A program made the translations under genes and the position numbers. Below the pieces are notes generated by a model. It did no database searches. It saw only the letters and a program-made list of their open reading frames with translations, and was not told the DNA's origin. From Escherichia coli (GTDB taxonomy: Bacteria; Pseudomonadota; Gammaproteobacteria; Enterobacterales; Enterobacteriaceae), in the NCBI RefSeq assembly GCF_009931435.1, contig NZ_CP043414.1: a DNA stretch of 64,000 bases; one strand, written 5' to 3'. Shown piece by piece: positions 9,575-49,724 of the stretch (position 1 is its first letter; every line of letters starts with the position of its first letter).

Positions 9575-9638
9575 TGCTTCAGGGCCCCAGTAAAGGGGCT
9601 CTGCTATCAATTTGCCATTTCAATTACGCGAAAATTAT

Positions 9639-10619: not shown

Positions 10620-10689
10620 GCGTTCATTAATTTGATTTATTTGCATCCATCAACGCTTTTAACTGCTCCGGCGTGCGGCACTATAATGG

Positions 10690-11440
10690 TTTTCACAACA
10701 AGGAGCCATTTTCTTATACCACTTTCAGAGACCATCCGCTTATGCCACCGCCCTCTACGCAACTGTTTGCAGAGCACCTTCCCACCGAGTGGATACAGCA
10801 CCTCCTGACGCTTTCTGCTCATGCGACTATTTGTCGTCTTAACCTGAGCGCGGATGGCGAAGCGGGGATTAGCCTGCTGGCCCGCAGCGCTGTCACCCAG
10901 GAGCGCCAGCGCGTGGGGGCCCCCTGGTGGAATGGCTCTTCCGCCAGACCGCACAGACATGGGGCGCGGAACGTTACCTGAAGGATGACTGGCACGGCCT
11001 GCAACTTTTTGCCATTGATGGCGCACAGTTCAGGACACCTATGAACCTGAGTTGCGTGAATATTATGGCTCTGCCAACACATCCACTGAGCGGCAGAGCG
11101 CCTACCCGGTCATGCGTCTGGTGGCGTTAATGAATCTGGGAATCACATTCTGCTGAATGCCATGACCGCGGCCTACCGGCGGAGCGATACAGCGTGAGGC
11201 AACTAAAGCGGCGTCAGAAATCAGCTTTAAGTTCGCATTCCAGTTTATCGTGACAGAAATGATAGTGCAGGGAAATACGGCGTCACCAGGAACCATCCCG
11301 AAACGGCTGGAGCATCTGCGGGGTGCTCTGGAAGCGGTGTTCCCACGACTATCAAGGCCGAGGGCTGTTAAGGTATCAAAAACCCGTTATCCGGTGAAAC
11401 ACAGTGCTGCCCCGCTTAAGTGACGGCATTGTGTTTCTGA
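10690..11440 (+). mobile_element. IS4-family transposase remnant (frameshifted and internally deleted pseudogene)
   Basis: Three consecutive reading frames carry pieces resembling IS4 transposase (InsG-like): ...VTQERQRVGAPW, FRQTAQTWG...LQLFAIDGAQFRTP, AYPVMRLVALMNLGITFC, and a C-terminal ...RAVKVSKTRYPVKHSAAPLK. Frames are broken and no intact transposase or clear terminal inverted repeats were seen. Boundaries approximate. Confidence 0.55.
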
Positions 11441-11593
11441 CTGGCCTTAACTTTCCCTGAATCTCTGACGATCCTCACCATTGATATTTTCTTCATTCCT
11501 CACCAGAGAAATAAAAAATCACTATACTCATCAAAATATGATGATCACCTTTATTCAGGTGATCACCTTACTATTTTATACGGAAAATAAATC

Positions 11594-12244
11594 ATGAATA
11601 TCCGTCAATCATTACATGACCGAATCTATGCAGAATACCCTCAACAGGCTAAAGATATATTACTGTATTTCCCCACTTATGAAATTATGCCATCGACCAT
11701 AAAAATGGTTATGATTAATGAGGTGGTAGCTATAACACCGCAAGAAGATTTTTATACACCAGAGTCTGGTTATTTTACGACTGTCGCCCGACAGTTAGCG
11801 CTGGCTGGATTATCGGCAAGTAGTGGCGAAGTCTTACTCAACCATGGTATCTACCTGACCTCCGCACTGAAACTACCTAAAACACAGATCACAGCCACAC
11901 CCGCGGAGATCATTCTCTGGTCACCTATTGTAGAATGGGAGCTCGAACTCTTTGCCAATATAAAAGTTATTTTCGTTGGCGGCGATATCGCGCGAAAATG
12001 CCTTAACATCATCGCGAAAAAGCAAACACGTAAACATGCCATCCCTTCAACTCCGACGTACAAACTGATGAATAGCGAATTAGTCTGGAAAGGAATAAGC
12101 ATACTTCCTGGATATATTCTTACCGGAAAAAACCTGCTCATTGAAAAGTCAAAAATCGAAATGAATGTCGAGCAATTAAGAAAAGGAATTGCGATTTATC
12201 GCAATAGTAACAGTAACCATACGAATAATTCAGTTCATGAATAA
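11594..12244 (+). CDS. Hypothetical protein, low GC; possible uracil-DNA-glycosylase-superfamily fold
   Basis: 216-aa ORF in AT-rich DNA. Four short motifs occur in the order typical of UDG-like folds (VMINEVVAITPQED; GIYLTSALKLP; KVIFVGGDIARK; IPSTPTY). The match is weak and based on pattern only. Confidence 0.4.
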   Translation: MNIRQSLHDRIYAEYPQQAKDILLYFPTYEIMPSTIKMVMINEVVAITPQEDFYTPESGYFTTVARQLALAGLSASSGEVLLNHGIYLTSALKLPKTQITATPAEIILWSPIVEWELELFANIKVIFVGGDIARKCLNIIAKKQTRKHAIPSTPTYKLMNSELVWKGISILPGYILTGKNLLIEKSKIEMNVEQLRKGIAIYRNSNSNHTNNSVHE

Positions 12245-12715
12245 GAGATGAATCATTAATAACAAGAAATCACTGACAAACCACCTGTAAAAGGTCAATC
12301 ATTTTAGTTCAATTTCCTTTGTCATGATTATATTTTTATCGTCCTGACGATACTATTAACAATTACAATATTTATACCCTCCCCTGAACAAACAGAAAAG
12401 AACTCATACATTCGTTTATAATTCTGGTAATCCTGGCATCATACGTTTAAAATTTAAGGTGTTTGTTTTATAATCATGGTTCCAAAGACTATTGGTCACC
12501 AGAAAATGCCAGCCTTTTCGTGCCAGCTATATTTGTCCAGTGTGTTACCCCATCCAAAAATCATCCACATCCTGATGTTATGTTAGATATAGAGAAAACA
12601 GGTTGTACTGTGCAATATGCTAACCGCATAAGCGAATATAATTTCTAAGCTGATATTGTCTGGCTGTTGGGAGCTAAACAATATAAATATCGCCAGTTGC
12701 CAGAACGGTTATATA

Positions 12716-12741
12716 GACCAGGAGCGTTTCGGCTCCTGGTC
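12716..12741. terminator. 10-bp-stem hairpin between convergent genes (putative bidirectional terminator)
   Basis: GACCAGGAGC-gtttcg-GCTCCTGGTC perfect inverted repeat located 17 bp beyond the stop of the UvrD-like gene and between convergent ORFs; flanking T-runs are short. Confidence 0.4.
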
Positions 12742-12757
12742 TGTTTCGGACATATTA

Positions 12758-14872
12758 TTAATCAGCCACTAATAGCGGACTAGGGATACCAGATGATGAA
12801 ACAAACAGCCCTTTTACGGCACGGGTTGCAGCCACATGCAGTAACGCGCGCTCATTAAATAATGCATCACGCTGTTCAACGGGATCATCGGATGCTAATG
12901 CTTTTATTTCCGGCACAACGCCTTCGTTAATCCCCACCAGGAACACATACTGGAACTCAAGCCCTTTAATACGGTGCATCGTTGCAACTCGCACGCCTGG
13001 GCGTGCATCGCTGTCACCGCTATCATTGCCTAAATTAAATGTCTCAATTCCGGCGTCATTGAGTGCTGATGCGTAGCGGTCACAAGCATGTTTAGTACGC
13101 GCAGTAATGCAGATATCCTGAGAACGAACCTGATTCGCCAGCAATGCCTGAATTTGCTTGACGAGTGTTGCAGCCTCTTCTTTGAAATCTGCCGCATGCG
13201 TAATCATGGGCTTTTCCCCGTGCAGTAATGACAAATAATCATTACTGGTATCCGCTTCGCCATCGAGGTTATCAACCTTCACACCAGTTAACAGCCCAAC
13301 AGCAAATTGACGCGTCTCTTCTGTGGTCCGATAGTTAATCTTCAATTTTTTACTGCGACGACCACGGACGTTAATACCACACTGACCAAGAACGACCTTA
13401 TTGCGATAAATACGCTGATGCCCATCCCCGACAATAAACAGATCGTTGGGCGACTCGGGAACCAGGCTGCGAATAAGAGTAAATGCCGGGGCACCGATAT
13501 CTTGAGCTTCATCGACGACAATACTGCTATAAGGTAGTTGGACCTGCTTTTCTTTAAACAGAACAATAGCCTCATGCATGGCATCGCCCATTTCGCGCAG
13601 TTTGGCACGCGCCATTTGTGCTCTGAATTCTTCGAAAACTGGCCAGATTTTCGCCCGTTGAATACGGGATAACGCTGTACCACGTCCAACCCGGCTGACT
13701 TTGAGGTATTCCTCCCGGGTGTAAACCGCATTTGGCTGGACAACGCGTTGCCACTCTTCAGCATAGAAATTGTCAGGTAGCCCCAGTTCGGCAGGTGCCT
13801 GCTGCAAGGCATAGTTCCAGCATTTACGTCGCCCTTCATCGCTGTCGTATACCACGCGGAAATCATAACCGTGGCGTTTTAGTTGGTCGCTCATCCAGGC
13901 ATCAATGTTAACGACGTCAATACGCGCCATCTCTTCTCGCGTACACAACCGCTGGAGATTAGCGCGAATATCTGCCGCCAGGTTACGCGTAAAGGTCGTG
14001 AAAAGTACCTTCTTACCGGGTTTATCTACCAGACGCTGAGATAACCACCGCGCACGGTGCATTGCAACAACCGTTTTCCCTGTACCTGCACCGCCCAGTA
14101 CTCGTACCGGACCATTAGCGGGCGACTCCACCAGTTTTCGCTGGCTCGGGTGCAGAAATACACGCCATTTTTCTAAAGGCGCATTAAGCATCTGCAATAG
14201 TTCCTGTTCATTTTCAACGACATGGAAGCGACGTTTACTTCGTTCAATCGCCTCCATAAAGTCGTTGGTATCAACAGGCTCATCACGATGATCGTTAAAC
14301 TCTTCCAGCACTTCCTGGTAATCCAGCCCTTCTGCCAGCCAGTGCAGAGGTTCCCAGGCTTCTGCTGGCATTATGCTTTCAAGTTGATTAAGCCCGGCTT
14401 CATCGGTAAGCGCCATCACCTGATCAATAAAGACAGGCGGCACACCCAGGGCCAGAATCTGTTCCGCGCTGTAAGCTGCGAAGAGTTTCGGTTTATCAAC
14501 CACCGTTTCCGCTGCCGGTTTGATATAGCTAATATCAATGACCTGAATCGCGCCAGTAACCGGGTGAATCGAACAATCATGCCGCCGCGCCCAGTCATAT
14601 GCTTCGTCGTGTTTATCCACCCACATCAGCATATACAGAGCACCCTGTTCAGGTTTCAGAACAATGCCGCGATAAGTTTGATCGATTCGCACCGAATGGA
14701 CATTTTTACTGCGCGCATCGTGGATCTTTTCATAGTTAAGTCCATTACTGGTCGGGTCCTGACGGAATTTGGAGATGAATTCCTGCACCTTTTTTTGCTG
14801 TGCTTTTGGGATCCGCGCGAATGCGCCCAGAAAACCATCAGAAAGTGCCACCTTGGGCGTTTGCACCGTCAT
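12758..14872 (-). CDS. UvrD/Rep-like superfamily-1 helicase with an extra N-terminal domain of about 200 aa (last gene of the DISARM-like operon)
   Basis: SF1 helicase motifs in order: Walker A GGAGTGKTVVAMHRA, VVDEAQDIG (motif II), FIVGDGHQRIY (motif III), KINYRTTEE (motif IV), ATMHRIKGLEFQYVFLV (motifs V/VI). The N-terminal region (...NVHSVRIDQTYRGIVL...) is not helicase-like. Its start overlaps the stop of the upstream giant gene by 4 bp (ATGA-type coupling). Confidence 0.7.
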   Translation of the reverse strand: MTVQTPKVALSDGFLGAFARIPKAQQKKVQEFISKFRQDPTSNGLNYEKIHDARSKNVHSVRIDQTYRGIVLKPEQGALYMLMWVDKHDEAYDWARRHDCSIHPVTGAIQVIDISYIKPAAETVVDKPKLFAAYSAEQILALGVPPVFIDQVMALTDEAGLNQLESIMPAEAWEPLHWLAEGLDYQEVLEEFNDHRDEPVDTNDFMEAIERSKRRFHVVENEQELLQMLNAPLEKWRVFLHPSQRKLVESPANGPVRVLGGAGTGKTVVAMHRARWLSQRLVDKPGKKVLFTTFTRNLAADIRANLQRLCTREEMARIDVVNIDAWMSDQLKRHGYDFRVVYDSDEGRRKCWNYALQQAPAELGLPDNFYAEEWQRVVQPNAVYTREEYLKVSRVGRGTALSRIQRAKIWPVFEEFRAQMARAKLREMGDAMHEAIVLFKEKQVQLPYSSIVVDEAQDIGAPAFTLIRSLVPESPNDLFIVGDGHQRIYRNKVVLGQCGINVRGRRSKKLKINYRTTEETRQFAVGLLTGVKVDNLDGEADTSNDYLSLLHGEKPMITHAADFKEEAATLVKQIQALLANQVRSQDICITARTKHACDRYASALNDAGIETFNLGNDSGDSDARPGVRVATMHRIKGLEFQYVFLVGINEGVVPEIKALASDDPVEQRDALFNERALLHVAATRAVKGLFVSSSGIPSPLLVAD

Positions 14873-17800
14873 TTGTCACCTCCGGACAGATGTTGCAATG
14901 TATTTTCGTCAATTGGCCCGAATGCAACGTGCCAACCCCTGGTTGTGAATAATGGAATAAATTCTTGATTATCAATAATCAATGCCCATTTTTGTGATGG
15001 CCAGGCGAGATCGGCTTCCGCAATAATTTCACCTTCATCATTTTGCAATTCGTAGCCGAGAGTCGGCGCAGAGAGAGAATGAGACTGAAGCAACGCGATC
15101 TCTTCAGCGCTTAATAAGCCAAACTCAATAATCTCAGCCCAACTTTCATCAGTCTCTGGTACTGCCTCTGGCGTTGCCGTAACTTTAACGTCAACGCTTT
15201 CCTGCGGTAAATGTACGGCTTTACGGCTGGTAAAGGTCATATCCGGCAGGAACTGTAACAGGTTTACCAGTCGCCAGAAGCCATTGAGTCCCGCTTCATA
15301 ACCGTCATCCTGCGTATAGCGATCGTCAAAACAGATATGCAAACGCAGCCAGCTGCGCATTTGTGCGACACTGGTCGTCGGTTTAATGGCTTGTTGTGGC
15401 AACACCGAAGCCAGCTCAATAAATTGCTGCGATGAGTTACAGCTATCGAGTAAACCACCAAAGACAAACGGTTCGTCTGGCAAAAGCTCTGCTAGCCGCC
15501 AGTCTGGCGCGTTTTCCTGCATTTCATAGGCATACTTTTGTTTCGTTCCCGCGTCCTGTGACTTCTTCACATCCAACCACACCCAGGCATGTGCAGCAGC
15601 CATTTTCTGCCATAACTGCGTTCTTCCTCCCGGCTCGGCGAGATAATCCAGCAGCAGTGCAAAACTGTTGCGTTCCCGGAACGACGCTTCAAGGGCCGCA
15701 AAGTTGGTATCGTGAAACAGGTTATAAAACTTAGGCTGTTTCATATCCGGGTTATGCCCAAGCCCCAGGACATCCTGAACATGTTTAAGCCCAGGCTCTT
15801 TGAGATCGGCCCACGTGACTGTCCACACCCAGAAATTACCGCTATCCCGAATCGCCTGGCGTTTTTGCACATCCTCTGCGACGCTATTTTTGTGAAACGC
15901 AAAGCCATCAAGGAAAATAGCTACCGGTTTAATGGCATCAGACTGCATAAGCGGATATAGCACGTAATCCGGGCGACAAGGGATCCCCACAGCCTCTTTA
16001 GCGCCTAAATCCACCTGAGCTTTAAGATGCCAGCTCATCATCGGTTCGCTGCGGGTGTTAATAATCCACCCAGCGCCCTGATGCGCGTAACTGCGACTGA
16101 CAATCAGGTTTTTATTTTCTTGCAGGCAGCTAATAAACCGTTTTTCCAGCTCACTGCCCATCATGGCTTCGAGGGAAATGTTTTTGATGGAATCAATTAC
16201 CCGTATCGAATCTCTTGCCTGCAAAATTTTCGCCAGCAAGAGACGCGCCTGATCGCGGGAGACATACTTCATGCGCCCACGGTCACGGTAAGCGTAAACG
16301 CAACGATAACAACCATCTTTATGCGTATCATGGTTGCAACTGCATTCCACTATCGCCTGATAGGCCAGTTCAAGTAATTTCAGCAAATTGTCGGGAGTGC
16401 GCATCAGCTCTTTAAGAGAACCAGTCCCCCCCGGGACGGTATCGTAAATCACCAGATACTGCCGCCAGGATTCGCCTTCATTTTCCGGCTCGCGGTACAC
16501 AACGCCTTTCAGGTGATCGACATTCCCCTTGAAGTAATGTTTAAGGCCGAGCTGGATCGCCGCCCCAAGAGAAGCCTCCACGACACGGTCATTACTGTAA
16601 CTGCTTACCGGGAGCAGAATTCGCAACGCTTCTGACTCCAGCTGGCGATAGAGATAGAGATAATCTTCGAACTTCGCCTTTTCCGGTTCCGTGCGATATT
16701 TGCAGCTCAAATCATGACGTGGTTCATGATCGCGAGGACGCTGTACCATGCCGCACCCCAGGCAAACTTTAAACCCGGTTCGCTTCTTCGCTTCTCCGGC
16801 AATCATCAACTCATTGGCATCATCCGCCATTTTGCCGAAGTTGATATCCCGCAGGGTGACTTTGCTTAAAAATTCAAAACCAAACGGAACTTCGCCTTCC
16901 TCAATCGCGTATGCCGCCGATACATCTTCTTTTTCGAAACTAACCAATAGCTGACGCTGGAAGAAAGCAGGTTCACGGCTGTCGCTCTCGTCGCTGATCT
17001 GGCTATCACGTGCGCTGGCGCGGGCATACACCTGGCGAAGTTTCAGCAGCGTGGTTTTTTGTCCGGCGTCGGCCCACCCCGGTGTGCCACATTTCGGGCA
17101 ATATTTATGCTGGTCGCCCGTCTGGTCGATATTTTCGCTGTAGTTACAGTGGCTACAGATACGCCAGTTCTCCGGCTCAGAGACCTTCAGGTCTATCTGC
17201 TCAATTTCAACTTTATGCCCACCGGCATAGAAATTATTCAGCGGAGCCAGCTCAGCCAGCGCCGTTGATGCCGGGCGTTCATATTCGAAAGTGGTGTTTT
17301 GATATTCACGCGCTTCCCCGCCTTCTTTACGCCGCCAGAGCACAGAACGTAACGTAATACCGGCTTCCGGGAAGGCGTAGTTAGGCAGCAGACCTTCATC
17401 CGTGAGGAAATTCAGCGTCTGCTTATTGTTGATTTGATTGACTAGCGCCATCAGCGCCTGCCGTTCTGAAGTTAACTCGCGCATATCGCTGTCAAAGTTT
17501 TGATCGCGCGGCGCGTTCTCCAGCTTATCGATACTGCGCTTGAGTTTATCGATGCGTGAACGCAGAGATTTGCGATCTTCCACCAGCAGTTTTAACGCCT
17601 CTTCGATACGCTGCACCAGAGAGCGTTGTCCTGGCGCGCCCTGAAGATAAGACAACAACTGTTGGCGAGTTTCTGCGGCAAGATCGGGGAAGATCGCCGT
17701 AAATTGTGCAGCAATCTCCGCATGATGCTGTTCGATATATCTCAGTAAGTTATACGGAAAACCCGATTTACGCCCGAACTCCAGCTCATCCAGCATCTGT

Positions 17801-26144: not shown

Positions 26145-26146
26145 GA

Positions 26147-29005: not shown

Positions 29006-29228
29006 CGGTTTTTCTGTCTATTTGGGGCAGTGGCGGTAACGTCATCCTGAAAAATGTGGCGCGGCACACTGCGATAAAAAAGAGGGCCTTAAAGATATCA
29101 TGAAGGCCCCCGGCAAAGTGACAAAATGGGAGGGAATGCGCATAAATTGCGCATGATTTTCAAACAAAAATTATTAAAAAGTGAGCTGGGTCAACTCCCC
29201 TGGAAGATATCCCCAGGGGAGCAATTAT
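29006..29228. promoter_or_regulatory. Intergenic region between druE-like and the SNF2 gene with two perfect inverted repeats (putative terminator and operator/promoter)
   Basis: CTCCCCTGG-aagatatc-CCAGGGGAG at 29195..29221 lies 8 bp beyond the druE-like stop. ATGCGCA-taaat-TGCGCAT at 29136..29154 is a second palindrome. AT-rich sequence follows toward the SNF2 start. Confidence 0.45.
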
Positions 29229-38902: not shown

Positions 38903-39113
38903 CCTGCCTTCCTTTGATACAATTCGTAACAGGTTACTATCATCATAAAAAAGCTCAACCCGATGAACTCGCTAAAAATGAGACAAATCATTTATATCTC
39001 GAAAAAACTTGTTACAATCATGAGCGCTACACCGAACTTAACCATATAAATTATGTGCGTTTTGTTTATTTTTTAAACAATTACAACTATCCATTATTTA
39101 CACAGGTATCAAA

Positions 39114-40766: not shown

Positions 40767-40772
40767 TCGATC

Positions 40773-41480
40773 ATGGATAAGATTATAGGGAAACAATTAC
40801 CTAAAAAAGATCAAGATAATGAACACTGGGTATCCATGTCAGACCTAATGGCAGGGCTGATGATGGTTTTTATGTTCATATCTATTGCTTATATGCACTA
40901 CGTACGTATTGAAAAAGAAAAAATTAAAGAAGTTGCCGTAGCCTACGAGAATGCTCAGTTACAGCTTTATAATGCTCTGGATATTGAGTTTGCAAAGGAT
41001 TTACAAGACTGGGATGCAGAGATCGATAAACAGACTCTGGAGGTTCGATTTAAATCACCGGATGTTTTATTTGGCTTAGGAAGCACAGAGCTAAAACCAA
41101 AGTTTAAACTCATTCTTGACGACTTCTTTCCTCGCTACCTAAAAGTTCTAGATAATTATCAGGACCATATTACTGAAGTCCGCATTGAAGGTCACACAAG
41201 TACTGACTGGACAGGAACAACGAATCCTGATATTGCTTATTTTAATAATATGGCACTATCACAAGGTCGTACACGTGCAGTATTACAATACGTTTATGAC
41301 ATAAAAAATATCGCGACACACCAACAATGGGTTAAAAGTAAATTTGCCGCAGTAGGTTATTCATCTGCACATCCCATTCTTGATAAAACCGGCAAGGAGG
41401 ATCCTAATCGCTCTCGTCGTGTCACCTTCAAAGTTGTAACAAATGCCGAATTGCAGATTAGAAAGATTATTCAGGAGTAA
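40773..41480 (+). CDS. zorB: ZorB-like MotB/OmpA-family peptidoglycan-binding protein (Zorya)
   Basis: Single N-terminal transmembrane helix carrying an Asp (SMSDLMAGLMMVFMFISIAY), with a C-terminal OmpA-like motif (NMALSQGRTRAVLQYV...SRRVTF). Separated from zorA by 6 bp. Confidence 0.65.
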   Translation: MDKIIGKQLPKKDQDNEHWVSMSDLMAGLMMVFMFISIAYMHYVRIEKEKIKEVAVAYENAQLQLYNALDIEFAKDLQDWDAEIDKQTLEVRFKSPDVLFGLGSTELKPKFKLILDDFFPRYLKVLDNYQDHITEVRIEGHTSTDWTGTTNPDIAYFNNMALSQGRTRAVLQYVYDIKNIATHQQWVKSKFAAVGYSSAHPILDKTGKEDPNRSRRVTFKVVTNAELQIRKIIQE

Positions 41481-41483
41481 GAG

Positions 41484-42587
41484 ATGAAATTATCTATCGA
41501 CATTTCAGAACTTATTCAATTAGGGAAGAAAATGTTACCAGAAGGAGTCGATTTTTTTCTGGATGAATCCCCTATTGACTTTGATCCTATAGATATTGAG
41601 TTATCCACGGGTAAAGAAGTTAGTATCGAAGATCTTGACCCTGGTAGCGGGCTTATCTCTTATCATGGCCGCCAGGTTCTTTTATATATTCGGGACCATT
41701 CAGGGCGTTATGATGCGGCTATCGTAGATGGCGAAAAAGGAAAACGTTTTCATATTGCCTGGTGCAGAACTCTTGATGAAATGCGCCATAAAAATCGATT
41801 TGAAAGGTATCATGCAACTAACCGCATAGATGGTTTATTCGAAATTGATGATGGTTCAGGTCGGAGCCAGGATGTTGATTTACGGGTATGTATGAATTGC
41901 CTCGAACGACTTAATTATAAAGGAAGTATTGATAAACAACGAAAAAGAGAGATTTTTAAATCATTCTCATTAAATGAGTTTTTTTCAGATTATAGTACCT
42001 GTTTTCGTCATATGCCTAAGGGTATCTATGACAAAACAAATAGTGGGTATGTCGAAAACTGGAAAGATATATCTAAATCAATACGAGAAAAGGCAAATTA
42101 TGTTTGTAATGATTGTGGCGTGAATTTATCAACCGCCAAAAACTTGTGCCATGTCCATCATAAAAATGGCATCAAATATGATAATCACCATGAAAACCTT
42201 CTTGTTCTGTGCAAGGATTGCCATCGAAAACAGCCCCTCCACGAAGGTATATTCGTTACCCAAGCTGAGATGGCTATCATTCAACGTTTACGTTCCCAAC
42301 AAGGGTTATTAAAAGCAGAATCCTGGAATGAAATATATGACCTGACTGATCCATCAGTGCATGGTGATATTAATATGATGCAACATAAAGGCTTTCAACC
42401 TCCTGTTCCTGGGTTAGATCTTCAAAACTCAGAACATGAAATTATTGCAACCGTAGAAGCTGCATGGCCAGGCCTTAAAATTGCAGTTAACCTTACTCCC
42501 GCCGAAGTCGAAGGATGGAGAATATATACCGTGGGTGAGCTGGTTAAAGAAATACAAACAGGAGCCTTTACGTCAGCAACGTTGTAA
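41484..42587 (+). CDS. zorE: ZorE-like HNH endonuclease (Zorya type II effector)
   Basis: HNH motif CNDCGVNLSTAKNLCHVHHKNGIKYDNHHENLLVLCKDCH. Lies 3 bp downstream of zorB, completing a ZorA-ZorB-HNH trio. Confidence 0.6.
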   Translation: MKLSIDISELIQLGKKMLPEGVDFFLDESPIDFDPIDIELSTGKEVSIEDLDPGSGLISYHGRQVLLYIRDHSGRYDAAIVDGEKGKRFHIAWCRTLDEMRHKNRFERYHATNRIDGLFEIDDGSGRSQDVDLRVCMNCLERLNYKGSIDKQRKREIFKSFSLNEFFSDYSTCFRHMPKGIYDKTNSGYVENWKDISKSIREKANYVCNDCGVNLSTAKNLCHVHHKNGIKYDNHHENLLVLCKDCHRKQPLHEGIFVTQAEMAIIQRLRSQQGLLKAESWNEIYDLTDPSVHGDINMMQHKGFQPPVPGLDLQNSEHEIIATVEAAWPGLKIAVNLTPAEVEGWRIYTVGELVKEIQTGAFTSATL

Positions 42588-42796
42588 ATTCCGAAACTCC
42601 GTGAAAGTTAAGACTTTCACGGAAGATAAATAAAATTCTCCTGATTTGTGACTCAAATTATAAAAGTCGTTTATGGCATAACTTGTCTGTTTTTTTGGTG
42701 TAATAGGTATAAAGGCATATGCTATGGTTAGCCTTATATTTAAAACTTTCCTCATACGGGTGAAGGTTAAAGCTTGGTAGATAGGTTACAGTCACA

Positions 42797-43406
42797 ATGA
42801 ATAAAGCAATAACGGTGCTTGCTATAATGATGGCTTCATTTTCCGTAAATGCGTATGTATTACCGGAAACGCCTGTGCCATTTAAAAGTGGTACCGGAGC
42901 AATTGATAACAACACTGTCTACATTGGTTTAGGTAGCGCAGGTACGGCATGGTACAAGCTGGAGAAACAGACCAAAGATAAAAAAATGGACAGCGTTAGC
43001 TGCATTTCCTGGTGGACCGAGAGATCAAGCAACTTCTGCATTTATTGATGGCAATCTGTATGTGTTTGACGGCATTGGCAAAAACAGTGAGGGCTTGACT
43101 CAGGTATTTAATGACGTTCACAAATACAACCTCAAAACCAATAGCTGGGTTAAATTGATGTCGCACGCGCCGATGGGCATGGCGGGTCATGTGACATTTG
43201 TACACAACGGCAAGGCTTATGTTACTGGCGGTGTTAACCAGAATATCTTCAATGGCTATTTTGAAGATCTTAACGAAGCTGGAAAAGATTCAGCGTACCG
43301 GTCACCGGAGAACTGGATGACGGTACTGCGAAGCAGTCATTTCAGTCGGGGGATGATTGTAGACAAATTTGTTGACGCTATTTTGCGGTTTTGGCGTGAA
43401 GGGTGA
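42797..43406 (+). pseudogene. Degenerate nanM'-nanS' fusion remnant: diverged second copy of the nanM 5' part joined to the nanS 3' end, with a frameshift
   Basis: MNKAITVLAIMMASFSVNAYVLPETPVPFKSGTGAIDNN... parallels the NanM N-terminus and frameshifts after ...QTKDKK. The second frame continues NanM-like (...GKNSEGLTQVFNDVHKYN...EDLNEAGKD) and then jumps directly into the NanS C-terminus (SAYRSPENWMTVLRSSHFS...FWREG). The following roughly 55 bp are near-identical to 10620..10677 after the intact nanS. Confidence 0.8.
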
Positions 43407-43413
43407 GCGTTCA

Positions 43414-44064
43414 TTAATTTGATTTATTTGCATCCATCAACGCTTTTAACTGCTCCGGCGAAAACGGTGGTTTGCGTCGGTGCAACATCGCATGGCAATT
43501 AGGGCACACAGGAAGCAAATCATTAACTGGATCCAGCTGGTAATTCTCTTTAATGGCTGAAAGCGGCACCAGGTGATGCACATGGATAAAGCCTTCAGCG
43601 ATATCACCATAGATCTTCACCAGATCAACGCCGCATACGTTGCACTGGCATCCATGATGTTCGACCGCTTTATCTCGGGCCTTTTTATCGCGTTCATAGC
43701 GGTTTACTGTCACCTTTATCGCCGCACCTTCAACGTATGTCTCCTGCGACGGCAACTCATCCGGGAACAGAACGTCGGCTATGGGAGCCGCAGCGGCTTT
43801 ATCCTGATGAATATGAAATCCCTGCTCTATGAGTAGTTTGACGCATTTAGATTTTATTCCGCCGGTGAAATCCGCAGGGGTAAATTGCGTCCCCGTCATC
43901 AATGTCGCTGCGATGCCAGCAATCGCCTTCGAGGGGTAACGTCGGCCATGATATTCAATCTCATACAACCGCGCAGGCTGGAACTGATGAGTTTCTCCCG
44001 CATCCCATAAATGGATAGCTTCGATGATATACCGCCGCGGAAGATGATCAGGGAGTTTATTCAT
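43414..44064 (-). CDS. HNH endonuclease family protein (McrA-like C-terminus)
   Basis: C-terminal CQCNVCGVDLVKIYGDIAEGFIHVHHLVPLSAIKENYQLDPVNDLLPVCPNCHAMLH is an HNH/zinc motif; the N-terminal domain is of unknown function. Confidence 0.6.
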   Translation of the reverse strand: MNKLPDHLPRRYIIEAIHLWDAGETHQFQPARLYEIEYHGRRYPSKAIAGIAATLMTGTQFTPADFTGGIKSKCVKLLIEQGFHIHQDKAAAAPIADVLFPDELPSQETYVEGAAIKVTVNRYERDKKARDKAVEHHGCQCNVCGVDLVKIYGDIAEGFIHVHHLVPLSAIKENYQLDPVNDLLPVCPNCHAMLHRRKPPFSPEQLKALMDANKSN

Positions 44065-44143
44065 GGAGAATGTCCTTATACGTTCTCAGAACAGGCAGCA
44101 AAAAAACAAATGAGATCAAGGTAATATATCTTCACTTGCAGGC

Positions 44144-45073
44144 TTGAACAGCAGAAAATTTGCGAGCATGATCGCAATTATTTCACTGCCAGGGATATCA
44201 ATGGCTTCCAGTAAATCGCTACAGCAGGCAATTGCCAATATAAAAATCTGGCACAAGGGTGAACAGCGCGCGCCGCATAAGCCATTGTTATTGCTATACG
44301 TATTAGCGGGATACCTGAATGGACATCCGCGCCTTTTCGATTATGGCTCGGAAATCTACGAACCTCTGCACAGTTTACTGGAACGTTTTGGGCCACAGCG
44401 TTCACAGTACCGACCTGATATGCCGTTCTGGCGATTACAAGGCGACGGATTCTGGCAATTACACAATGCCGAACTTTGCTCAACAGCAGGGAGTAGCCGA
44501 CAACCGCCAGTGAAGGAACTGACCGAACACCGCGTTGCAGGCGGTTTCGATGAACAGCACTATGCCCTGGTAATCGGCAATAAAAAACTCATCAATACCC
44601 TGGCGCAACAGATACTCGAAGCGCACTTCACCGAGAGCATTCAGGAAGAAATTGCTGACGAGCTGGGTTTTGATCTCCAGCAAATCCGTAAACAGCGCGA
44701 CCCGTTATTTCGCAAACTTGTATTGCGCGCATATAACTACCAGTGCGCGATATGTGGCTTTAATATGCGCCACGATGACACCACCGTCGCACTGGAAGCA
44801 GCGCATATAAAATGGAAACAGCACGGCGGTCCTTGTGAAATTCCTAATGGCCTGGCGCTTTGTGCAATACACCATAAAGCCTTTGATAAAGGATCGATTG
44901 GCCTGGATGAAAATATGCGGGTACTGGTCTCGGATGCGGTAAACGGCGGAGGGATCGTTGAGAAACTATTCTGGGATTTTGACGGGAAAACTATTGCGTT
45001 ACCACAGGTGCGTAAAAATTACCCTTTTGAGGGGTTTGTGGAGTGGCATCGAAAAGAGGTTTTTAGGGGGTGA
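44144..45073 (+). CDS. HNH-motif nuclease-like protein, divergent from the preceding HNH gene
   Basis: C-terminal CAICGFNMRHDDTTVALEAAHIKWKQHGGPCEIPNGLALCAIHHKAFDKG (HNH-like). Shares a 79-bp divergent intergenic region with the 43414..44064 gene. The true start may be an internal Met. Confidence 0.55.
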   Translation: MNSRKFASMIAIISLPGISMASSKSLQQAIANIKIWHKGEQRAPHKPLLLLYVLAGYLNGHPRLFDYGSEIYEPLHSLLERFGPQRSQYRPDMPFWRLQGDGFWQLHNAELCSTAGSSRQPPVKELTEHRVAGGFDEQHYALVIGNKKLINTLAQQILEAHFTESIQEEIADELGFDLQQIRKQRDPLFRKLVLRAYNYQCAICGFNMRHDDTTVALEAAHIKWKQHGGPCEIPNGLALCAIHHKAFDKGSIGLDENMRVLVSDAVNGGGIVEKLFWDFDGKTIALPQVRKNYPFEGFVEWHRKEVFRG

Positions 45074-45695
45074 GGTTGATAACTATCGCAGTATGTTCAA
45101 TATTGCTGACATAATCAGTGCAGGATCTTGCCGCTAGTTTACAACTCGCCTTCGATAGCGGCGCAAAACGAGTTCTGTTGCCGATATCCTCGGCTATGGA
45201 TATTCCAACAGTTCCGGCAGAGTTGTTTACCAAGTTTCAGGTAAGTTTTTACTCAGAACCGGTTGATGCGGTTTATAAGGCGCTGGATGTGAATTAACAC
45301 ATTCCTCAGCTTATTTACAAAAGGATTATTCCCATTTGATATAATATCAGTGCCAATTTACTTTTTTCAATGGAATATATCTCGGCTAAATAACAATAAA
45401 ACTTATCGCTAATGGATTAAATAAACAATTTTCTAATTTATTTCACCACCTTTGATATAGAAATTGATGGTGTTGTCGCTGCCATTGCTTATGGTGATGA
45501 TAAAATCCACGTTTCTGGATCGGTGCGTAGAAAATCATCACTTCCTTGATATTTTGATGCGATATGATCATACCGTTCCGTAGTACCAATTTCAACTTCA
45601 GGCTAAACCCCAACATTAAAAAAATTAGAGTTATTCACTGATTATATTATCAATAATATAATCAGTGAATAACATGGACTATATAATAAATTGCT

Positions 45696-47744
45696 CTAAT
45701 CATTTCCCTTACGAATATATGGGCCAAAAGCCCAAGAATCATAATAAGGGTGATGGACTAATTTTTCATTAAATCGAACACTATAAGTTAATTTTTTTAT
45801 ATTTTTACGTACAGCATTAATACTGGGCAAAGAGGAAAGATAATCTATAAACTTATCGATAGTGATTTTCCCTTCGCAACACTCAAACCCATCAATGATA
45901 TTTTTCGCCATTTTTCCATTTTCATTTGTTTGATATATCACTCCAGGTATTCGTTGAAAAAAACTAGATAATGCATATTTGTCCGCTACATATGTATCAT
46001 CCACATGATATTTCCCACCGAGCATAGTTGTAGTAACAATAAGCTTATACACACCTTTGGGTTGCCATGTTGATGGTAGTTCGAATTCTTTAATGATCAC
46101 ATCAAGATGATTAAGATAATGTTCAGAAATTCGATTTATTTGTTGAAAATAAGAACGCATAAATTTATTATTATGATCATGTATTAATGAGCTATCTCCA
46201 ACGATGTTACACACTTGCTGATAGTACTTACCATAATATATTGGTTGACCATTTGATTTTAGTTCTGTAAAAATCAAACAATCATCCAGGAGAATCACGC
46301 AATCGCACTGATAATTAGCATGAGCATCAATTGGAGAAGCTTTAATCCCCGCATCACGAACTTGTTTTATAAATTGTTGCTCATGAAATCGCCCTTTACT
46401 TGCTTGAGAAATTTTTTTGGAACCAAATAATGACATTAGAGAGCGAGTCACTGAGCTATTTGCTATTAATGCAGGCATTAAGCATAAACCGTCCATACAG
46501 GGAATAAATGGGCAATCATTAAGATCATGTGATTTTGAATTGAAGGTAAAATAATCTATCAGTTTTTTTGCTGCATCTGCTGCAATCCCCTTACGTTGAA
46601 AGAATGATAACCAACTCTCACGGCTTTTTATGACCAGCCAGCGATCCAACTGTAGGGGTATAGGTTTTGTCGATGAAAATCTTTTGCTCATTTCTTCTTT
46701 AGATAACTCGACTAAACATTGATAAGCGTGCACCCAATTAAATAATGATATATTCCCATATTCTTCATGAAGGTCATCAGGAGACATATTTTCCAACTCG
46801 CTTAAATGAAATGAGCTAAAAACGCCATCAGAATTTAAGTAAGATGGCATATGATCCTTTACCCAACTATTTAGATGAAAATGTTTGTTACTAAATTCAT
46901 GAACTTCGCTATATAGATGTGACGCTCTCATCATTAGTCTATTTCTTGCAATCTCATAATCTCGGTATAAACAAAAACTATCAACCTCAAGAGAGTAAAT
47001 GTTATTATCCAATTTTGTAAATACTGCACTACTTAGTCTGAAAAAGTCTCTTACTCTGCTTAATGAGTCAAAAACATTCCACTCATTAAGGTACCCTCCC
47101 ATTGAAAGCAAGGTTTGTTTATTCACACAAGAAGTTAGTTTCAATGGCCCATGAGTCCGTAAATAAGAAAATATTCTTCCGGTGTAATTGGCTACCTCAT
47201 CAAATGCCCTATCGATAACTCGAAAATATTCGATATCAGGTTCAGCATGAATATTAATATTTTCAGAAACGATAAATAATGGAAAAATCCTCTTCATTTT
47301 TTTAGGATCATTGACCACAACCAAGGATGATAATGATGATAAAAACATCTCACAAAACATGATGAGATTAAGTATTAATGCATGTGATTTTTTTGTATTT
47401 TTACGCCAAATACCAGCACATTTTGCAGCCCCAAAGAAAGAATTATTTATATCATGCATAATTTTACATTGACTCTCGAACTCAGAGATTAGTTCAATGT
47501 TATCAGGAAATGAGTTTACTAGCTCATTAATACATTTTTTGAATGTATTGTTATACTCAACTTCAGTCTGAACTGAAAATCTATTATAATAGATGGAAGA
47601 TATTCTCAGCACATCCAAGGCGATATCTATACTAATATCATCTCTTTTTATGTACTCACAAAAAAAAGAACAAAACTGTTTCGGGTCGTTAGCAAGATTA
47701 CTAATTCTAGTGGTATCATAAACTTTTTCCATTTTTCCATACAT
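45696..47744 (-). CDS. Hypothetical 682-aa protein, very low GC, adjacent to leuX
   Basis: Long uninterrupted ORF in strongly AT-rich DNA with no recognisable motif by eye. Its position next to the tRNA and its composition suggest horizontal acquisition. Confidence 0.5.
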   Translation of the reverse strand: MYGKMEKVYDTTRISNLANDPKQFCSFFCEYIKRDDISIDIALDVLRISSIYYNRFSVQTEVEYNNTFKKCINELVNSFPDNIELISEFESQCKIMHDINNSFFGAAKCAGIWRKNTKKSHALILNLIMFCEMFLSSLSSLVVVNDPKKMKRIFPLFIVSENINIHAEPDIEYFRVIDRAFDEVANYTGRIFSYLRTHGPLKLTSCVNKQTLLSMGGYLNEWNVFDSLSRVRDFFRLSSAVFTKLDNNIYSLEVDSFCLYRDYEIARNRLMMRASHLYSEVHEFSNKHFHLNSWVKDHMPSYLNSDGVFSSFHLSELENMSPDDLHEEYGNISLFNWVHAYQCLVELSKEEMSKRFSSTKPIPLQLDRWLVIKSRESWLSFFQRKGIAADAAKKLIDYFTFNSKSHDLNDCPFIPCMDGLCLMPALIANSSVTRSLMSLFGSKKISQASKGRFHEQQFIKQVRDAGIKASPIDAHANYQCDCVILLDDCLIFTELKSNGQPIYYGKYYQQVCNIVGDSSLIHDHNNKFMRSYFQQINRISEHYLNHLDVIIKEFELPSTWQPKGVYKLIVTTTMLGGKYHVDDTYVADKYALSSFFQRIPGVIYQTNENGKMAKNIIDGFECCEGKITIDKFIDYLSSLPSINAVRKNIKKLTYSVRFNEKLVHHPYYDSWAFGPYIRKGND

Positions 47745-48421
47745 CCTATTGTCTAAATTACTATAAAATTAGCCACTTAACTAATAATTATAAATTTCAT
47801 CTTTTGCACCTTGCATTTTTATAACCAATGAAATCTACAACAAGCAACTGATGGATAATCCGATATTGGTCGCATTTAATGGCATGGTAGCAAAGTTTTC
47901 ATCACATACCTCCTTTGCACCAGAATAAACGCCAGAGACCTGAAATTGCGAGTACACTACAGAAATTGTACTGCCGGTCCCATCAGCATAAAACCATAGT
48001 TACACAGGTAATCATCATTATTCACCAAGATAATAAATATTATTCGGTAGAATAGCGTTCTCAGGTGGTCAGTAAAATTGTCTTCAACAAGATGTCTGCG
48101 CATCTCGTCTGCTAGCCCTACATAACTGCTCTCGACCGAAACTATTTATTGAATGTTCACCAAGGTGGGCGTGGAGACAAAATGACGTCTTTTGATATTA
48201 GCTACCTGAGCCACATGGTCAAAACGTTCAAGTAGCATAGCGAAACCACCCTGCCCACGTAATGTGGACGATGCAGCTTCCAGCCAGAGCAAACTTGGGA
48301 CCATCGACTACCAAATGAAGAATACTGAACTGCTTTTCTGGCAGGCCTATATACTGCACGGATATGGGTGATTTCAGACACAAAAAAAGCCGCTCTTGAG
48401 CGACTCGATTTGCATACGGTG

Positions 48422-49721: not shown

Positions 49722-49724
49722 AAA

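What the first reader, a model, noticed from the sequence alone, without database searches (positions are those of the whole stretch)
10620..48421. Integrase-less accessory island at the leuX tRNA hotspot replacing the prophage found here in K-12
The core synteny valS-holC-pepA-lptFG-yjgR-idnRTOD-idnK-ahr-leuX and nanSMC-fimBEAICD matches K-12, but between leuX and nanS this window carries defense genes, HNH nucleases and a low-GC orphan ORF with no P4-like integrase and no recognisable phage structural genes. The only mobility footprint I can see is an IS4-like remnant. leuX-adjacent regions are well-known integration hotspots. Island ends are not precisely defined by a recognisable att repeat in my reading.
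Basis: partly seen in the sequence, partly recalled or inferred. Interest (0 to 1): 0.5.

Follow-up and report, generated by a model that had tools for sequence, protein, structure and literature searches.

The report
Known E. coli leuX anti-phage defence island

Summary
Window 10674-48370 is accessory DNA between nanS and leuX. It has no integrase, no phage structural genes and no repeat of the leuX 3' end.

It is not new. It is E. coli defence hotspot #37 (nanS to ahr, tRNA-Leu-CAA). It carries the published nine-gene array ARMADA II (armABCD), Druantia III (druHE) and Zorya II (zorABE), as in O-island 172 of EDL933. All nine genes are intact.

It is also not one island. It has three independently varying slots:
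- **Slot A, 10674-43460 (32.8 kb):** the array. Diverged direct copies of nanM-nanS plus the HNH gene's 3' end flank it. The array-less junction, nanS next to HNH, is contiguous in 1137 of 5426 complete genomes.
- **Resident pair:** an HNH nuclease and a phosphorothioate-DNA restriction enzyme.
- **Slot B, 45077-48370:** a BrxL relic and a 682-aa low-GC gene. K-12 holds KpLE2 in this slot.
- **Slot C:** the leuX att core, which is empty here. EDL933 and an ST131-like strain carry P4-like elements there.

The "orphan" is not an orphan. It belongs to a family of at least 360 clusters, has a PD-(D/E)xK nuclease fold and sits in defence contexts. It is an untested defence candidate.

The parts
10490..10673 (+). 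Direct-repeat copy 1: the nanS 3' end, the intergenic DNA and the last 47 bp of an HNH gene. This is the left edge of the 32.8-kb insert.
   Evidence: the repeat finder families D1/D2. Alignments to 43289-43460 give 85% identity with a 12-bp gap.
10674..11431 (+). IS4-family transposase remnant. It is 5'-truncated at the junction and frameshifted.
   Evidence: About 92% DNA identity to loci annotated 'IS4 family transposase'. Pfam Nterm_IS4 E 0.004. Broken reading frames. RefSeq annotates it 'transposase, frameshifted'.
11594..12244 (+). 216-aa protein with weak similarity to the UDG superfamily. Function unknown. Deleted in O157.
   Evidence: Pfam UDG E 0.004. Family-5 UDG 2d3y E 0.18. No PADLOC, NCBIfam or PHROG hit. 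EDL933 lacks it through a microhomology deletion.
12758..14872 (-). armD: UvrD/GajB-like helicase of ARMADA type II.
   Evidence: PADLOC GajB 2.7e-36. K266 and D454 are present. Gene order matches Bell et al..
14869..21210 (-). armC: YprA/DruE-like giant helicase-nuclease of ARMADA type II (2113 aa).
   Evidence: PADLOC DruE3 4.4e-104, partial match. K110 and D234 are present.
21210..26144 (-). armB: PglX/DrmMI-like DNA methyltransferase (1644 aa). It has a variable segment at about 21806-22848.
   Evidence: PADLOC REase_MTase_IIG 4.5e-287 and DrmMI 3.4e-57. NPPW at residue 971 and G605 are present. The variable segment shows.
26147..29005 (-). armA: SNF2/DrmD/BrxHII-like helicase of ARMADA type II.
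   Evidence: PADLOC DrmD 1.4e-99. K136 and D236 are present.
29229..35552 (-). druE: Druantia type III helicase-nuclease (2107 aa).
   Evidence: PADLOC DruE3 E 0, 2182 bits, full length.
35543..38902 (-). druH: Druantia type III partner protein (STY4851/ECs_5259 family).
   Evidence: PADLOC DruH3 E 0, 2551 bits, full length.
39114..42587 (+). zorA (39114-40766), zorB (40773-41480) and zorE (41484-42587): Zorya type II.
   Evidence: PADLOC ZorA2 1.3e-301, ZorB2 1.5e-104, ZorE2 9.2e-177, all full length.
42588..42776 (+). Spacer between zorE and nanM', containing a NanR-box-like sequence (TGGTGTAATAGGTATAAAGG).
   Evidence: 71% similar to the region upstream of nanC, 7272-7347. 565 of 582 Zorya-bearing genomes keep the zorE-spacer-nanM' junction.
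42777..43460 (+). Decayed second copy of nanM (5' 516 bp) fused to the nanS 3' end and the HNH 3' end. This is direct-repeat copy 2 and the right edge of the insert.
   Evidence: 94% identical to the window's own nanM at 8448-8962. NCBIfam nanM fragment. AT-biased decay. The second copy is intact in TW14425.
43414..44064 (-). Stand-alone HNH endonuclease (216 aa). It is resident flank and lies next to nanS in array-less genomes.
   Evidence: Pfam HNH 1.2e-4. Weak PADLOC mREase_IV hit. The empty-site junction is contiguous in 1137 genomes.
44201..45073 (+). Phosphorothioated-DNA-binding restriction endonuclease. The longest ORF starts at 44144.
   Evidence: NCBIfam NF045808, 436 bits against a cutoff of 180. 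K-12 keeps a remnant next to nanS.
45106..45285 (+). BrxL (BREX) C-terminal relic.
   Evidence: PADLOC BrxL, profile positions 622-680 of 680, E 8e-20.
45696..47744 (-). 682-aa protein at 33% GC: a helical N-terminal half plus a C-terminal PD-(D/E)xK nuclease fold. Untested single-gene defence candidate.
48370..48506 (-). leuX (48422-48506), its unoccupied att core (48422-48444) and 52 bp of conserved 3' flank (48370-48421).
   Evidence: ARAGORN and Rfam. The flank is shared with K-12, RMDEC465 and the sequence after the EDL933 repeat. EDL933 has a perfect second 23-mer and THO-008 a degenerate one.

Best explanation
**What it is.** The interval is E. coli defence-island hotspot #37 (nanS to ahr, tRNA-Leu-CAA) in a state with no active mobile element. 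It is a mosaic of three slots plus one resident gene pair.

**Slot A, 10674-43460.** This slot holds the published, experimentally validated nine-gene array of the O-island 172 type.
- *ARMADA II (armABCD):* three helicases and a methyltransferase. Defence is direct and non-abortive.
- *Druantia III (druHE):* DruH is the likely sensor. DruE is a 3'-to-5' helicase-nuclease that acts on ssDNA-containing replication intermediates.
- *Zorya II (zorABE):* a MotAB-like membrane motor with the HNH nuclease ZorE as effector.
- A decayed IS4-family element and a UDG-like gene sit at its left end.

**How slot A is bounded.** The block is not bounded by att sites. A second copy of nanM-nanS plus the HNH 3' end bounds it, so the flanks are homologous DNA. 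Inferred: recombination at the nan locus placed the block there, and an exchange between the copies can remove it. No site-specific recombinase is needed. In this window the second copy has decayed to about 700 bp at 85-94% identity, so the block is effectively fixed.

**Resident pair.** The HNH nuclease and the PT-DNA restriction enzyme are resident flank. They are modification-dependent (type IV-like) nucleases.

**Slot B, 45077-48370.** This is the slot where leuX-proximal cargo turns over. Here it holds a BREX relic and a 682-aa predicted PD-(D/E)xK nuclease.

**Slot C.** The leuX att core is empty.

**Shown versus inferred.** Shown: gene identities, intactness, junctions, the empty-site haplotype and the occupancy of other genomes. 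Taken from the literature: the anti-phage activity and synergy of the three systems. Inferred: the route of acquisition, and any role of the 682-aa and UDG-like genes.
For: **System identity.**
- Full-length PADLOC matches for DruE3, DruH3, ZorA2, ZorB2 and ZorE2.
- The ARMADA components match DrmD, REase_MTase_IIG/DrmMI, DruE and GajB in the strict armA-B-C-D order.
- All eight residues mutated by Bell et al. are present, and all nine ORFs are intact.

**Match to the known island.** The window is 97.8% identical to EDL933 OI-172 over 12248-42812.

**Literature.**
- ARMADA definition and the tRNA-Leu composite with a frequently immobilised ARMADA element: 10.1101/2025.09.15.676423.
- Hotspot #37 is nanS to yjgB with tRNA_Leu_CAA.
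- Druantia and Zorya mechanism.

**Slot A.**
- Direct repeats at 10490-10673 and 43289-43460, and nanM' at 42777-43292.
- The synthetic empty-site junction is contiguous in 1137 of 5426 genomes, for example RMDEC465.
- TW14425 has an intact nanM-nanS after zorE.

**Slot B.**
- K-12 shares sequence only up to 44468 and again from 48370.
- RMDEC465 has McrBC and a type I restriction-modification system in this slot. LD67-1 has a JetD-domain gene.
- The window has a BrxL relic there.

**Slot C.**
- EDL933 has an integrase and a perfect 23-bp repeat. THO-008 has a degenerate repeat and a CP4-like element.
- The window has neither.
Against: - The order of events at the nan locus is not resolved. 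TW14425's intact copy could be ancestral, or it could have been restored by gene conversion.
- The left junction lies inside a truncated IS, so the original left end of the block is lost.
- No recombination product or circular intermediate was observed.
- The defence activity of this particular allele set is inferred from near-identical published systems. It was not measured.
- A single large element that had captured nanM-nanS-HNH-PT restriction genes and then lost its integrase and far repeat would give the same map.
Confidence: 0.85

Rival explanations
1. The whole 10.6-48.4 kb interval is one decayed P4-like element. It integrated at leuX through its own integrase and was later immobilised by losing the integrase and the far att repeat. 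This is the reading given for 'immobilised ARMADA elements' in Bell et al.
For: - The literature model.
- EDL933 has an integrase pseudogene just beyond the PT-restriction gene on the leuX side, after a perfect leuX repeat.
- The array, with its nanM' scar, also occurs inside islands integrated at tRNA-Phe.
- A Pectobacterium homologue of the 682-aa gene lies two genes after a P4-type integrase.
Against: - HNH and the PT-restriction gene lie next to nanS in 1137 array-less genomes. In K-12 only a remnant of the PT-restriction gene does. These genes therefore behave as resident flank, not cargo.
- The array lies on the far side of them from leuX.
- K-12 has an intB vestige in the same leuX-proximal slot but no array. 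Integrase vestiges there therefore need not belong to the array.
- The distal junction is an HNH 3' end joined to a truncated IS. It is not an att repeat, in the window or in EDL933.
- In KH_005 two direct ISKpn26 copies bracket the array at pheV, and it carries the EDL933-type nan scar. That points to IS-mediated relocation from the nan-leuX locus.
Confidence: 0.2
2. It is a degraded prophage or integrative conjugative element whose structural or transfer genes are too diverged to recognise.
For: - K-12 annotates the equivalent interval as the KpLE2 'phage-like element'.
- HNH nucleases hit phage families in PHROGs.
Against: - Identified defence genes, the nan fragments and the IS remnant fill the interval almost completely.
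- The largest unassigned gaps are 513-677 bp and contain no long ORF.
- No PHROG structural, terminase or conjugation hit was found. Rfam finds only leuX.
Confidence: 0.03
3. The region is ordinary conserved E. coli chromosome, and K-12 is the exception because of KpLE2.
For: Part of it is widespread: the nanS-HNH-PT restriction junction is contiguous in 1137 genomes.
Against: - Only 514 of 5426 genomes carry at least 80% of the array query.
- 582 genomes carry the zorE end.
- 92 genomes carry the UDG-containing left end.
- 95 genomes cover at least 80% of 34000-49000, and 7 of the listed hits cover it fully.
- The slot contents differ between the fetched genomes.
Confidence: 0.02

Closest known systems
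O-island 172 of E. coli O157:H7 EDL933 (Zorya II, Druantia III, ARMADA II defence island; Li et al. 2025, 10.1101/2025.09.22.677730; Bell et al. 2025, 10.1101/2025.09.15.676423, Fig. 5B)
   Same: [quoted passage not shown]
- The same armB allele.
- The same left junction: HNH 3' end, IS4 remnant, nanS.
- The same zorE-spacer-nanM' right junction.
- The same chromosomal site between nanS and leuX.
   Different: - EDL933 has a 10.2-kb integrase-bearing element in leuX, bounded by a perfect 23-bp repeat, plus an inner integrase pseudogene. The window has neither.
- EDL933 has lost the UDG-like gene, the HNH gene, the nanS' piece and most of nanM' (249 bp are left). It also lacks the 682-aa gene and the BrxL relic.
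- The window therefore preserves an older, less deleted form of the scar.
E. coli defence-island hotspot #37 (Hochhauser et al., 10.1101/2022.06.09.495481)
   Same: - It is flanked by nanS and yjgB (= ahr) and associated with tRNA-Leu-CAA.
- It is reported to hold BREX, AbiEii, Wadjet and Zorya. That matches the Zorya array, the BrxL relic and the JetD-domain gene seen in LD67-1.
   Different: - That study treats the interval as one hotspot occupied by mobile elements.
- Here it resolves into at least three separately varying slots. The largest cargo has homologous nan-gene flanks rather than att sites.
KpLE2 / PR-Y cryptic element of E. coli K-12 at leuX
   Same: It occupies the leuX-proximal part of the same interval. 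It starts after the same roughly 50-bp leuX flank and ends at a PT-restriction gene remnant next to nanS.
   Different: - KpLE2 keeps an intB pseudogene and carries fec, sgc, yjh and nanXY cargo with many IS elements.
- It has no array and no HNH gene.
- It corresponds only to window 45077-48370, not to the whole finding.
DISARM class 1 and Druantia, as relatives of the ARMADA component
   Same: A DrmD-like SNF2 helicase, a DrmMI-like methyltransferase and a YprA-type helicase with DruE-like regions.
   Different: - The YprA helicase is one 2113-aa fusion protein.
- A GajB-like UvrD helicase (ArmD) is added.
- No separate DrmB or DrmC gene is present. The published classification therefore files it as ARMADA type II, not DISARM.
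Upx (single-gene defence nuclease; PDB 9wuf), as the nearest structural relative of the 682-aa protein
   Different: - Only 10% identity.
- Upx has 1212 residues against 682 here.
- No PADLOC match, so membership is not supported.
- The N-terminal helical half has no significant match.

Membership tests
ARMADA type II (Bell et al. 2025) | Strict gene order: BrxHII/SNF2-like helicase, PglX-like methyltransferase, YprA-like helicase, GajB-like UvrD helicase. | tested here: met
   armA 26147-29005, armB 21210-26144, armC 14869-21210 and armD 12758-14872 are co-directional and abutting. PADLOC matches are DrmD/BrxH, REase_MTase_IIG/DrmMI/PglX, DruE/DrmA and GajB.
ARMADA type II (Bell et al. 2025) | The catalytic residues shown to be needed for defence are present: ArmA K136 and D236; ArmB G605 and N971 (NPPW); ArmC K110 and D234; ArmD K266 and D454. 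| tested here: met
   All eight residues are present at the same positions, in the expected Walker A, Walker B and NPPW contexts.
ARMADA type II (Bell et al. 2025) | [quoted passage not shown] | not tested
   - The helicase matches in ArmD start at residue 240 or so, which leaves an unassigned N-terminal region.
- The ArmC C-terminus gave only a weak ZorE-like HNH hit at 2021-2096.
- No structure prediction was run on either protein.
Druantia type III | DruH and DruE are encoded together and both are full length. | tested here: met
   DruE3 scores 2182 bits over 9-2105 of 2107 residues. DruH3 scores 2551 bits over 3-1119 of 1119 residues. The two genes overlap by 10 bp.
Zorya type II | ZorA and ZorB (MotAB-like) with ZorE (HNH) and without ZorC or ZorD. 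| tested here: met
   ZorA2, ZorB2 and ZorE2 give full-length best matches. The type I and III models score far lower. There is no ZorC or ZorD gene.
tRNA-integrated genomic island or P4-like satellite | A tyrosine integrase gene next to the tRNA gene. | tested here: not met
   - tblastx with K-12 intB gave only chance-level matches (E >= 0.01), and tblastx with the EDL933 active integrase and integrase pseudogene gave no hit at E <= 0.1.
- All ORFs of 300 aa or more are assigned to other families.
tRNA-integrated genomic island or P4-like satellite | A direct repeat of the tRNA 3' end (16-23 nt) at the distal boundary. | tested here: not met
   The window has no second copy at up to 3 mismatches in 23 nt, or up to 2 in 14 nt. 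The positive control worked: EDL933 has a perfect second 23-mer and THO-008 a degenerate one.
tRNA-integrated genomic island or P4-like satellite | The element lies immediately 3' of the tRNA gene and is absent from some strains. | tested here: inconclusive
   The variable DNA starts 52 bp after leuX, and 9-10% of genomes carry the array. However, the array is separated from leuX by resident genes and by a separately varying slot.
Phosphorothioate-dependent (type IV-like) restriction endonuclease, NCBIfam NF045808 | A whole-protein score above the curated cutoff. | tested here: met
   435.9 bits against a cutoff of 180, covering profile positions 2-284 of 284. Activity and PT dependence were not tested.
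PD-(D/E)xK nuclease superfamily (the 682-aa protein) | A restriction-endonuclease-like fold with a conserved D...(D/E)xK motif. | tested here: met
   - D480, E493 and K495 are invariant in 59 relatives that share 16-56% identity with the query.
- The model is confident, with pLDDT 91.5.
- Nuclease activity was not tested.
Known anti-phage systems in PADLOC-DB 2.0 (the 682-aa protein and the UDG-like protein) | A match to any model of a known or candidate defence protein. | tested here: not met
   Neither protein matched any family at E <= 0.001.

The most novel reading that the evidence does not exclude
The 682-aa low-GC gene at 45696-47744 may represent an undescribed single-gene anti-phage system. 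It would be a helical sensor domain fused to a PD-(D/E)xK nuclease, only distantly related in fold to Upx. It would travel as stand-alone cargo in defence hotspots, integrase islands and prophage ends. Separately, the Zorya-Druantia-ARMADA array may have reached this site, and may leave it, by homologous recombination through duplicated nan genes, with IS elements moving it on to tRNA-Phe islands. In that case the integrase vestiges credited with delivering it would belong to unrelated elements in the neighbouring slot.
Probability: 0.35. Interest if true: 0.45.

Novelty: already known. Interest (0 to 1): 0.25.

Why it matters
**Main value.** The check is a clean negative for novelty. A reader with no tools correctly spotted a real integrase-less defence island. 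Two 2025 preprints and the 2022-23 hotspot survey have already mapped and named that island, and the preprints tested it experimentally.

**What the work adds is modest:**
- Base-level boundaries.
- Evidence that the hotspot is three slots, not one.
- A nan-gene scar that marks where the array came from. It also travels with the array to tRNA-Phe islands between IS5 copies.
- A BREX relic.
- Two untested defence candidates beside validated systems: a PD-(D/E)xK protein family with at least 360 clusters, and a UDG-like gene.

**Practical consequence.** Genomes with this state carry the full Druantia-ARMADA-Zorya set. The literature links that set to broad phage resistance, which matters for phage therapy against E. 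coli.

Tried and rejected
- **att repeats.** I searched for leuX 3'-end repeats at several lengths and mismatch levels and found none in the window.
- **Integrase vestiges.** tblastx with three integrase sequences gave nothing but chance-level matches.
- **K-12 relics.** tblastx tested K-12 yjhR as an armD relic and K-12 IS4 (insG) as the parent of the IS remnant. Neither matched. The remnant instead resembles the insZ-type IS4-family loci.
- **Overlapping ORFs.** Eight ORFs overlapping the large genes hit no NCBIfam family.
- **First structure model.** The model of the 682-aa protein built from 7 sequences was poor (pLDDT 50) and its Foldseek hits were not usable. A 59-sequence alignment fixed this.
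- **W444.** I examined it as a possible alternative left junction, but it is only an IS1 truncation.
- **UDG-like gene.** The glycosylase-defence literature (Brig1, Brig3) gave no link to it.
- **Active element.** I could not identify a genome in which an ARMADA-bearing element at leuX is still active. The paper gives no accession numbers.
- **Order of events.** I could not settle whether TW14425's intact nanM after zorE is ancestral or was restored by gene conversion.
- **Technical note.** Locus L002 was first missing from the script folder, so K-12 was fetched again as L003.

Full report

Yes. ARAGORN and Rfam place one tRNA gene in the window, tRNA-Leu(CAA), at 48422-48506 on the minus strand. 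The island therefore lies 3' of leuX, the usual side for tRNA-linked islands.

BLAST against K-12 MG1655 shows collinearity from fimA to the end of nanS (window 3763-10622). Collinearity resumes 52 bp past leuX (window 48370) and continues as far as the fetched K-12 locus reaches, about window 50910. Further right, EDL933 matches yjgR and lptG. In K-12 the interval between these points holds the KpLE2/PR-Y element with its intB pseudogene.

The window has no second copy of the leuX 3' end. Searches with a 23-mer at up to 3 mismatches and a 14-mer at up to 2 mismatches found nothing in the island. The same search does find a perfect second 23-mer in EDL933, and a degenerate copy is readable in strain THO-008, so the test works.

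No integrase is present:
- Every ORF of 300 aa or more in the interval is assigned to another family.
- tblastx with K-12 intB gave only chance-level matches, and tblastx with the active EDL933 integrase and its inner integrase pseudogene gave nothing at E <= 0.1.
- Eight ORFs overlapping the large genes (seven antisense, one same-strand alternative frame) hit no NCBIfam family.
- PHROGs returns only HNH nuclease families, plus two families of unknown function for the IS remnant.

The transposase remnant at 10674-11431 is frameshifted. It is about 92% identical to loci annotated as IS4-family transposase and weakly matches Pfam Nterm_IS4.

**2. What is in the interval?**

PADLOC models identify the large genes.
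- *Druantia type III:* druE at 29229-35552 and druH at 35543-38902. Both are full-length matches with E = 0.
- *Zorya type II:* zorA, zorB and zorE at 39114-42587, all full length.
- *A four-gene operon at 12758-29005:* a DrmD/BrxH-like SNF2 helicase (952 aa), a DrmMI/PglX-like methyltransferase (1644 aa), a DruE-like giant helicase (2113 aa) and a GajB-like UvrD helicase (704 aa).

The four-gene operon matches, in order and content, ARMADA type II as defined in 10.1101/2025.09.15.676423. All eight residues that paper mutated are present at the same positions, and all nine ORFs are uninterrupted.

The remaining genes are:
- a 216-aa protein with weak UDG-superfamily similarity;
- a stand-alone HNH nuclease;
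- a phosphorothioated-DNA-binding restriction endonuclease, 436 bits against a curated cutoff of 180;
- a 682-aa ORF at 33% GC.

**3. It is already described.**

The window is 97.8% identical to O-island 172 of EDL933 over 12248-42812.
- Li et al. (10.1101/2025.09.22.677730) report the three systems on OI-172 and their co-occurrence in 426 of 3792 E. coli genomes. They also report broad, partly synergistic protection in deletion mutants.
- Bell et al. define ARMADA and show direct, non-abortive defence that needs all four genes. Their Fig. 5B describes tRNA-Leu-linked composites in which the ARMADA-containing part is "frequently, but not always immobilized".
- Hochhauser et al. list hotspot #37 as nanS to yjgB (= ahr) with tRNA_Leu_CAA. 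They note that BREX, Wadjet and Zorya favour it.
- 2026 preprints give mechanism. DruH is the likely sensor. DruE is a 3'-to-5' helicase-nuclease acting on ssDNA-containing intermediates. Synergy with ZorE runs through RecBCD-linked DNA intermediates.

My own counts agree with an accessory island. 514 of 5426 complete genomes carry at least 80% of window 10000-34000, and 582 carry the zorE end.

**4. The interval is a mosaic, not one island.**

*Slot A.* A direct repeat joins 10490-10673 to 43289-43460. It comprises the nanS 3' end, the intergenic DNA and the last 47 bp of the HNH gene. Just upstream of the second copy, 42777-43292 is the first 516 bp of nanM. It starts exactly at the nanC stop codon position and is 94% identical to the window's own nanM. 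A second, internally deleted copy of nanM-nanS plus the HNH 3' end therefore flanks a 32.8-kb block holding the IS4 remnant, the UDG-like gene, ARMADA, Druantia and Zorya.

Three further observations bear on this block:
- A synthetic "empty-site" query joined the nanS 3' part directly to HNH and the PT-restriction gene. It is contiguous in 1137 of 5426 genomes. One example is RMDEC465, which reads nanS-HNH-PT restriction-McrCB-DUF4942-hsdMSR-leuX with no integrase.
- Four genomes, including TW14425, have zorE followed by an intact nanM-nanS-HNH. The second copy was therefore once complete.
- The window's copy differs from standard alleles mostly by changes towards A or T, as expected for an old pseudogene.

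*Resident pair.* HNH and the PT-restriction gene lie next to nanS in array-less genomes. K-12 keeps a 5' remnant of the PT-restriction gene directly after nanS.

*Slot B, 45077-48370.* Its edges are the PT-restriction stop codon and a point about 50 bp from leuX. These edges are shared by K-12, RMDEC465, LD67-1 and the sequence following the EDL933 repeat. Its content differs by genome:

| Genome | Content of slot B |
|---|---|
| K-12 | KpLE2 |
| RMDEC465 | McrBC and a type I restriction-modification system |
| LD67-1 | A JetD-domain gene |
| EDL933 | An integrase pseudogene |
| This window | A 60-codon BrxL C-terminal relic (E 8e-20) and the 682-aa gene |

*Slot C.* EDL933 has a 10.2-kb integrase-bearing element between leuX and a perfect 23-bp repeat. 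THO-008 has a CP4-like element and a degenerate repeat. In the window this site is empty.

**5. How the array got there and how it moves.** This part is inferred.

Diverged nan-gene copies flank the array. The distal junction is an HNH 3' end joined to the interior of an IS. No att repeat exists at that junction, in the window or in EDL933. These facts fit entry by recombination at the nan locus: either a single crossover of a circle carrying nan homology, or homology-anchored illegitimate joining. They also fit possible loss by exchange between the two copies.

The facts sit less well with delivery of the array by the integrase whose vestige lies in slot B. K-12 has such a vestige but no array, and the resident pair separates slot B from the array. 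I cannot exclude one large element that had earlier captured nanM-nanS-HNH-PT restriction genes and later lost its integrase and far repeat. I give that reading 0.2.

The nan scar is a useful provenance marker:
- In KH_005 the array lies inside a pheV island and carries the 249-bp EDL933-type nanM' scar plus 18 bp of the EDL933-type junction. Two direct ISKpn26 copies, 99.5% identical, bracket it there.
- ET151 has a truncated zorE, the spacer and the nanM' remnant at pheV.
- 565 of 582 genomes keep the zorE-spacer-nanM' junction.

This points to IS-mediated relocation from the nan-leuX locus to tRNA-Phe islands.

**6. The "orphan".**

The 682-aa protein has no Pfam, PADLOC, NCBIfam or PHROG match. 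It is not an orphan, though:
- It has close copies in thousands of E. coli sequences, a 75% relative in Salmonella, and 40-56% relatives in Izhakiella, Xenorhabdus, Pectobacterium and Pantoea.
- A profile search finds 360 clusters at E <= 1e-3.
- In 59 relatives, D480, E493 and K495 are invariant, which is a D...ExK motif.
- With that alignment AlphaFold2 gives pLDDT 91.5 and pTM 0.90.
- Foldseek finds no significant full-length match.

Relatives sit in defence or mobile-element contexts:
- beside a type I restriction-modification system and a Cap4 nuclease;
- beside an integrase, within an island that also holds Mrr, PIN and KAP NTPase genes;
- at a Bacillus prophage end next to a pPIWI gene;
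- two genes after a P4-type integrase in Pectobacterium;
- as a lone insertion in Izhakiella.

This is the usual signature of a stand-alone defence gene, but it is untested.

**7. Verdict.**

However, it is a mosaic, the array is not in the att slot, K-12's element replaces only slot B, and the orphan has a family.

Novelty is "already known". Interest is low, 0.25. The residual value lies in the slot structure, the nan scar as a provenance marker, and two untested candidate genes.

Noticed in passing
window 45106-45285 (+): A 60-codon relic of the C-terminus of BrxL, the BREX Lon-like protein, lies directly after the PT-restriction gene. It matches PADLOC BrxL profile positions 622-680 of 680 at E 8e-20. 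A BREX system therefore once occupied the leuX-proximal slot.
   Followed up: yes
[not shown]
   Followed up: partly
window 11594-12244 (+): A 216-aa gene at 40% GC has only weak UDG-superfamily similarity (Pfam E 0.004). It sits between the IS4 remnant and armD. Only about 92 genomes carry it, and O157 lost it through a microhomology deletion. Antiviral DNA glycosylases are now known, so it is a speculative defence candidate.
   Followed up: partly
L013 (KH_005) 8038-9236 and 41229-42427; L010 (ET151): At pheV, two direct ISKpn26 (IS5) copies that are 99.5% identical bracket the whole array plus the 249-bp nanM' scar. An IS1 sits at the position equivalent to window 12080. No shared 4-bp target duplication was evident at the outer ends. 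ET151 keeps only a truncated zorE-spacer-nanM' remnant at pheV.
   Followed up: partly
window about 21806-22848 (inside armB): A roughly 1-kb segment of the ARMADA methyltransferase gene is highly variable between genomes. It shows 77% identity or no match against TW14425, THO-008 and LD67-1, but it is the same allele as in EDL933. It coincides with a GC dip to 0.44. It is probably the target-recognition region, and it fits the published note that armB is the variable gene of the island.
   Followed up: partly
window 42645-42715 and 7272-7352: The spacer upstream of nanM' carries a NanR-operator-like sequence (TGGTGTAATAGGTATAAAGG) resembling the nanC upstream region. The nanC upstream region itself is 84% similar to the region upstream of nanX in K-12's KpLE2. 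Related NanR-type promoter regions therefore occur at three places around this hotspot.
   Followed up: no
window 45630-45673: A perfect 21-nt inverted repeat with a 2-nt loop lies just downstream of the stop codon of the 682-aa gene. It is probably that gene's terminator hairpin.
   Followed up: no
window 49721-54812 compared with L008 (EDL933): EDL933 lacks the idnK-idnDOTR block that the window and K-12 carry between ahr and yjgR. This is a separate deletion on the other side of leuX.
   Followed up: no
hit H118 (strain ES5, 137.8-kb record, 126848-127340): A 137.8-kb record annotated with terminase and exonuclease genes is 94.9% identical to the 3' end of armD (window 12708-13200). It may be a phage-plasmid carrying part of an ARMADA system.
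   Followed up: no
L007 (TW14425) 9121-10312: In TW14425 and three other genomes the array abuts uxuA. The whole fim operon, gntP, nanC and the first nanMS copy are missing. A fragment 72% similar to the UDG-like gene remains. This is a fim-negative lineage in which the array sits next to the only nanM-nanS copy.
   Followed up: partly
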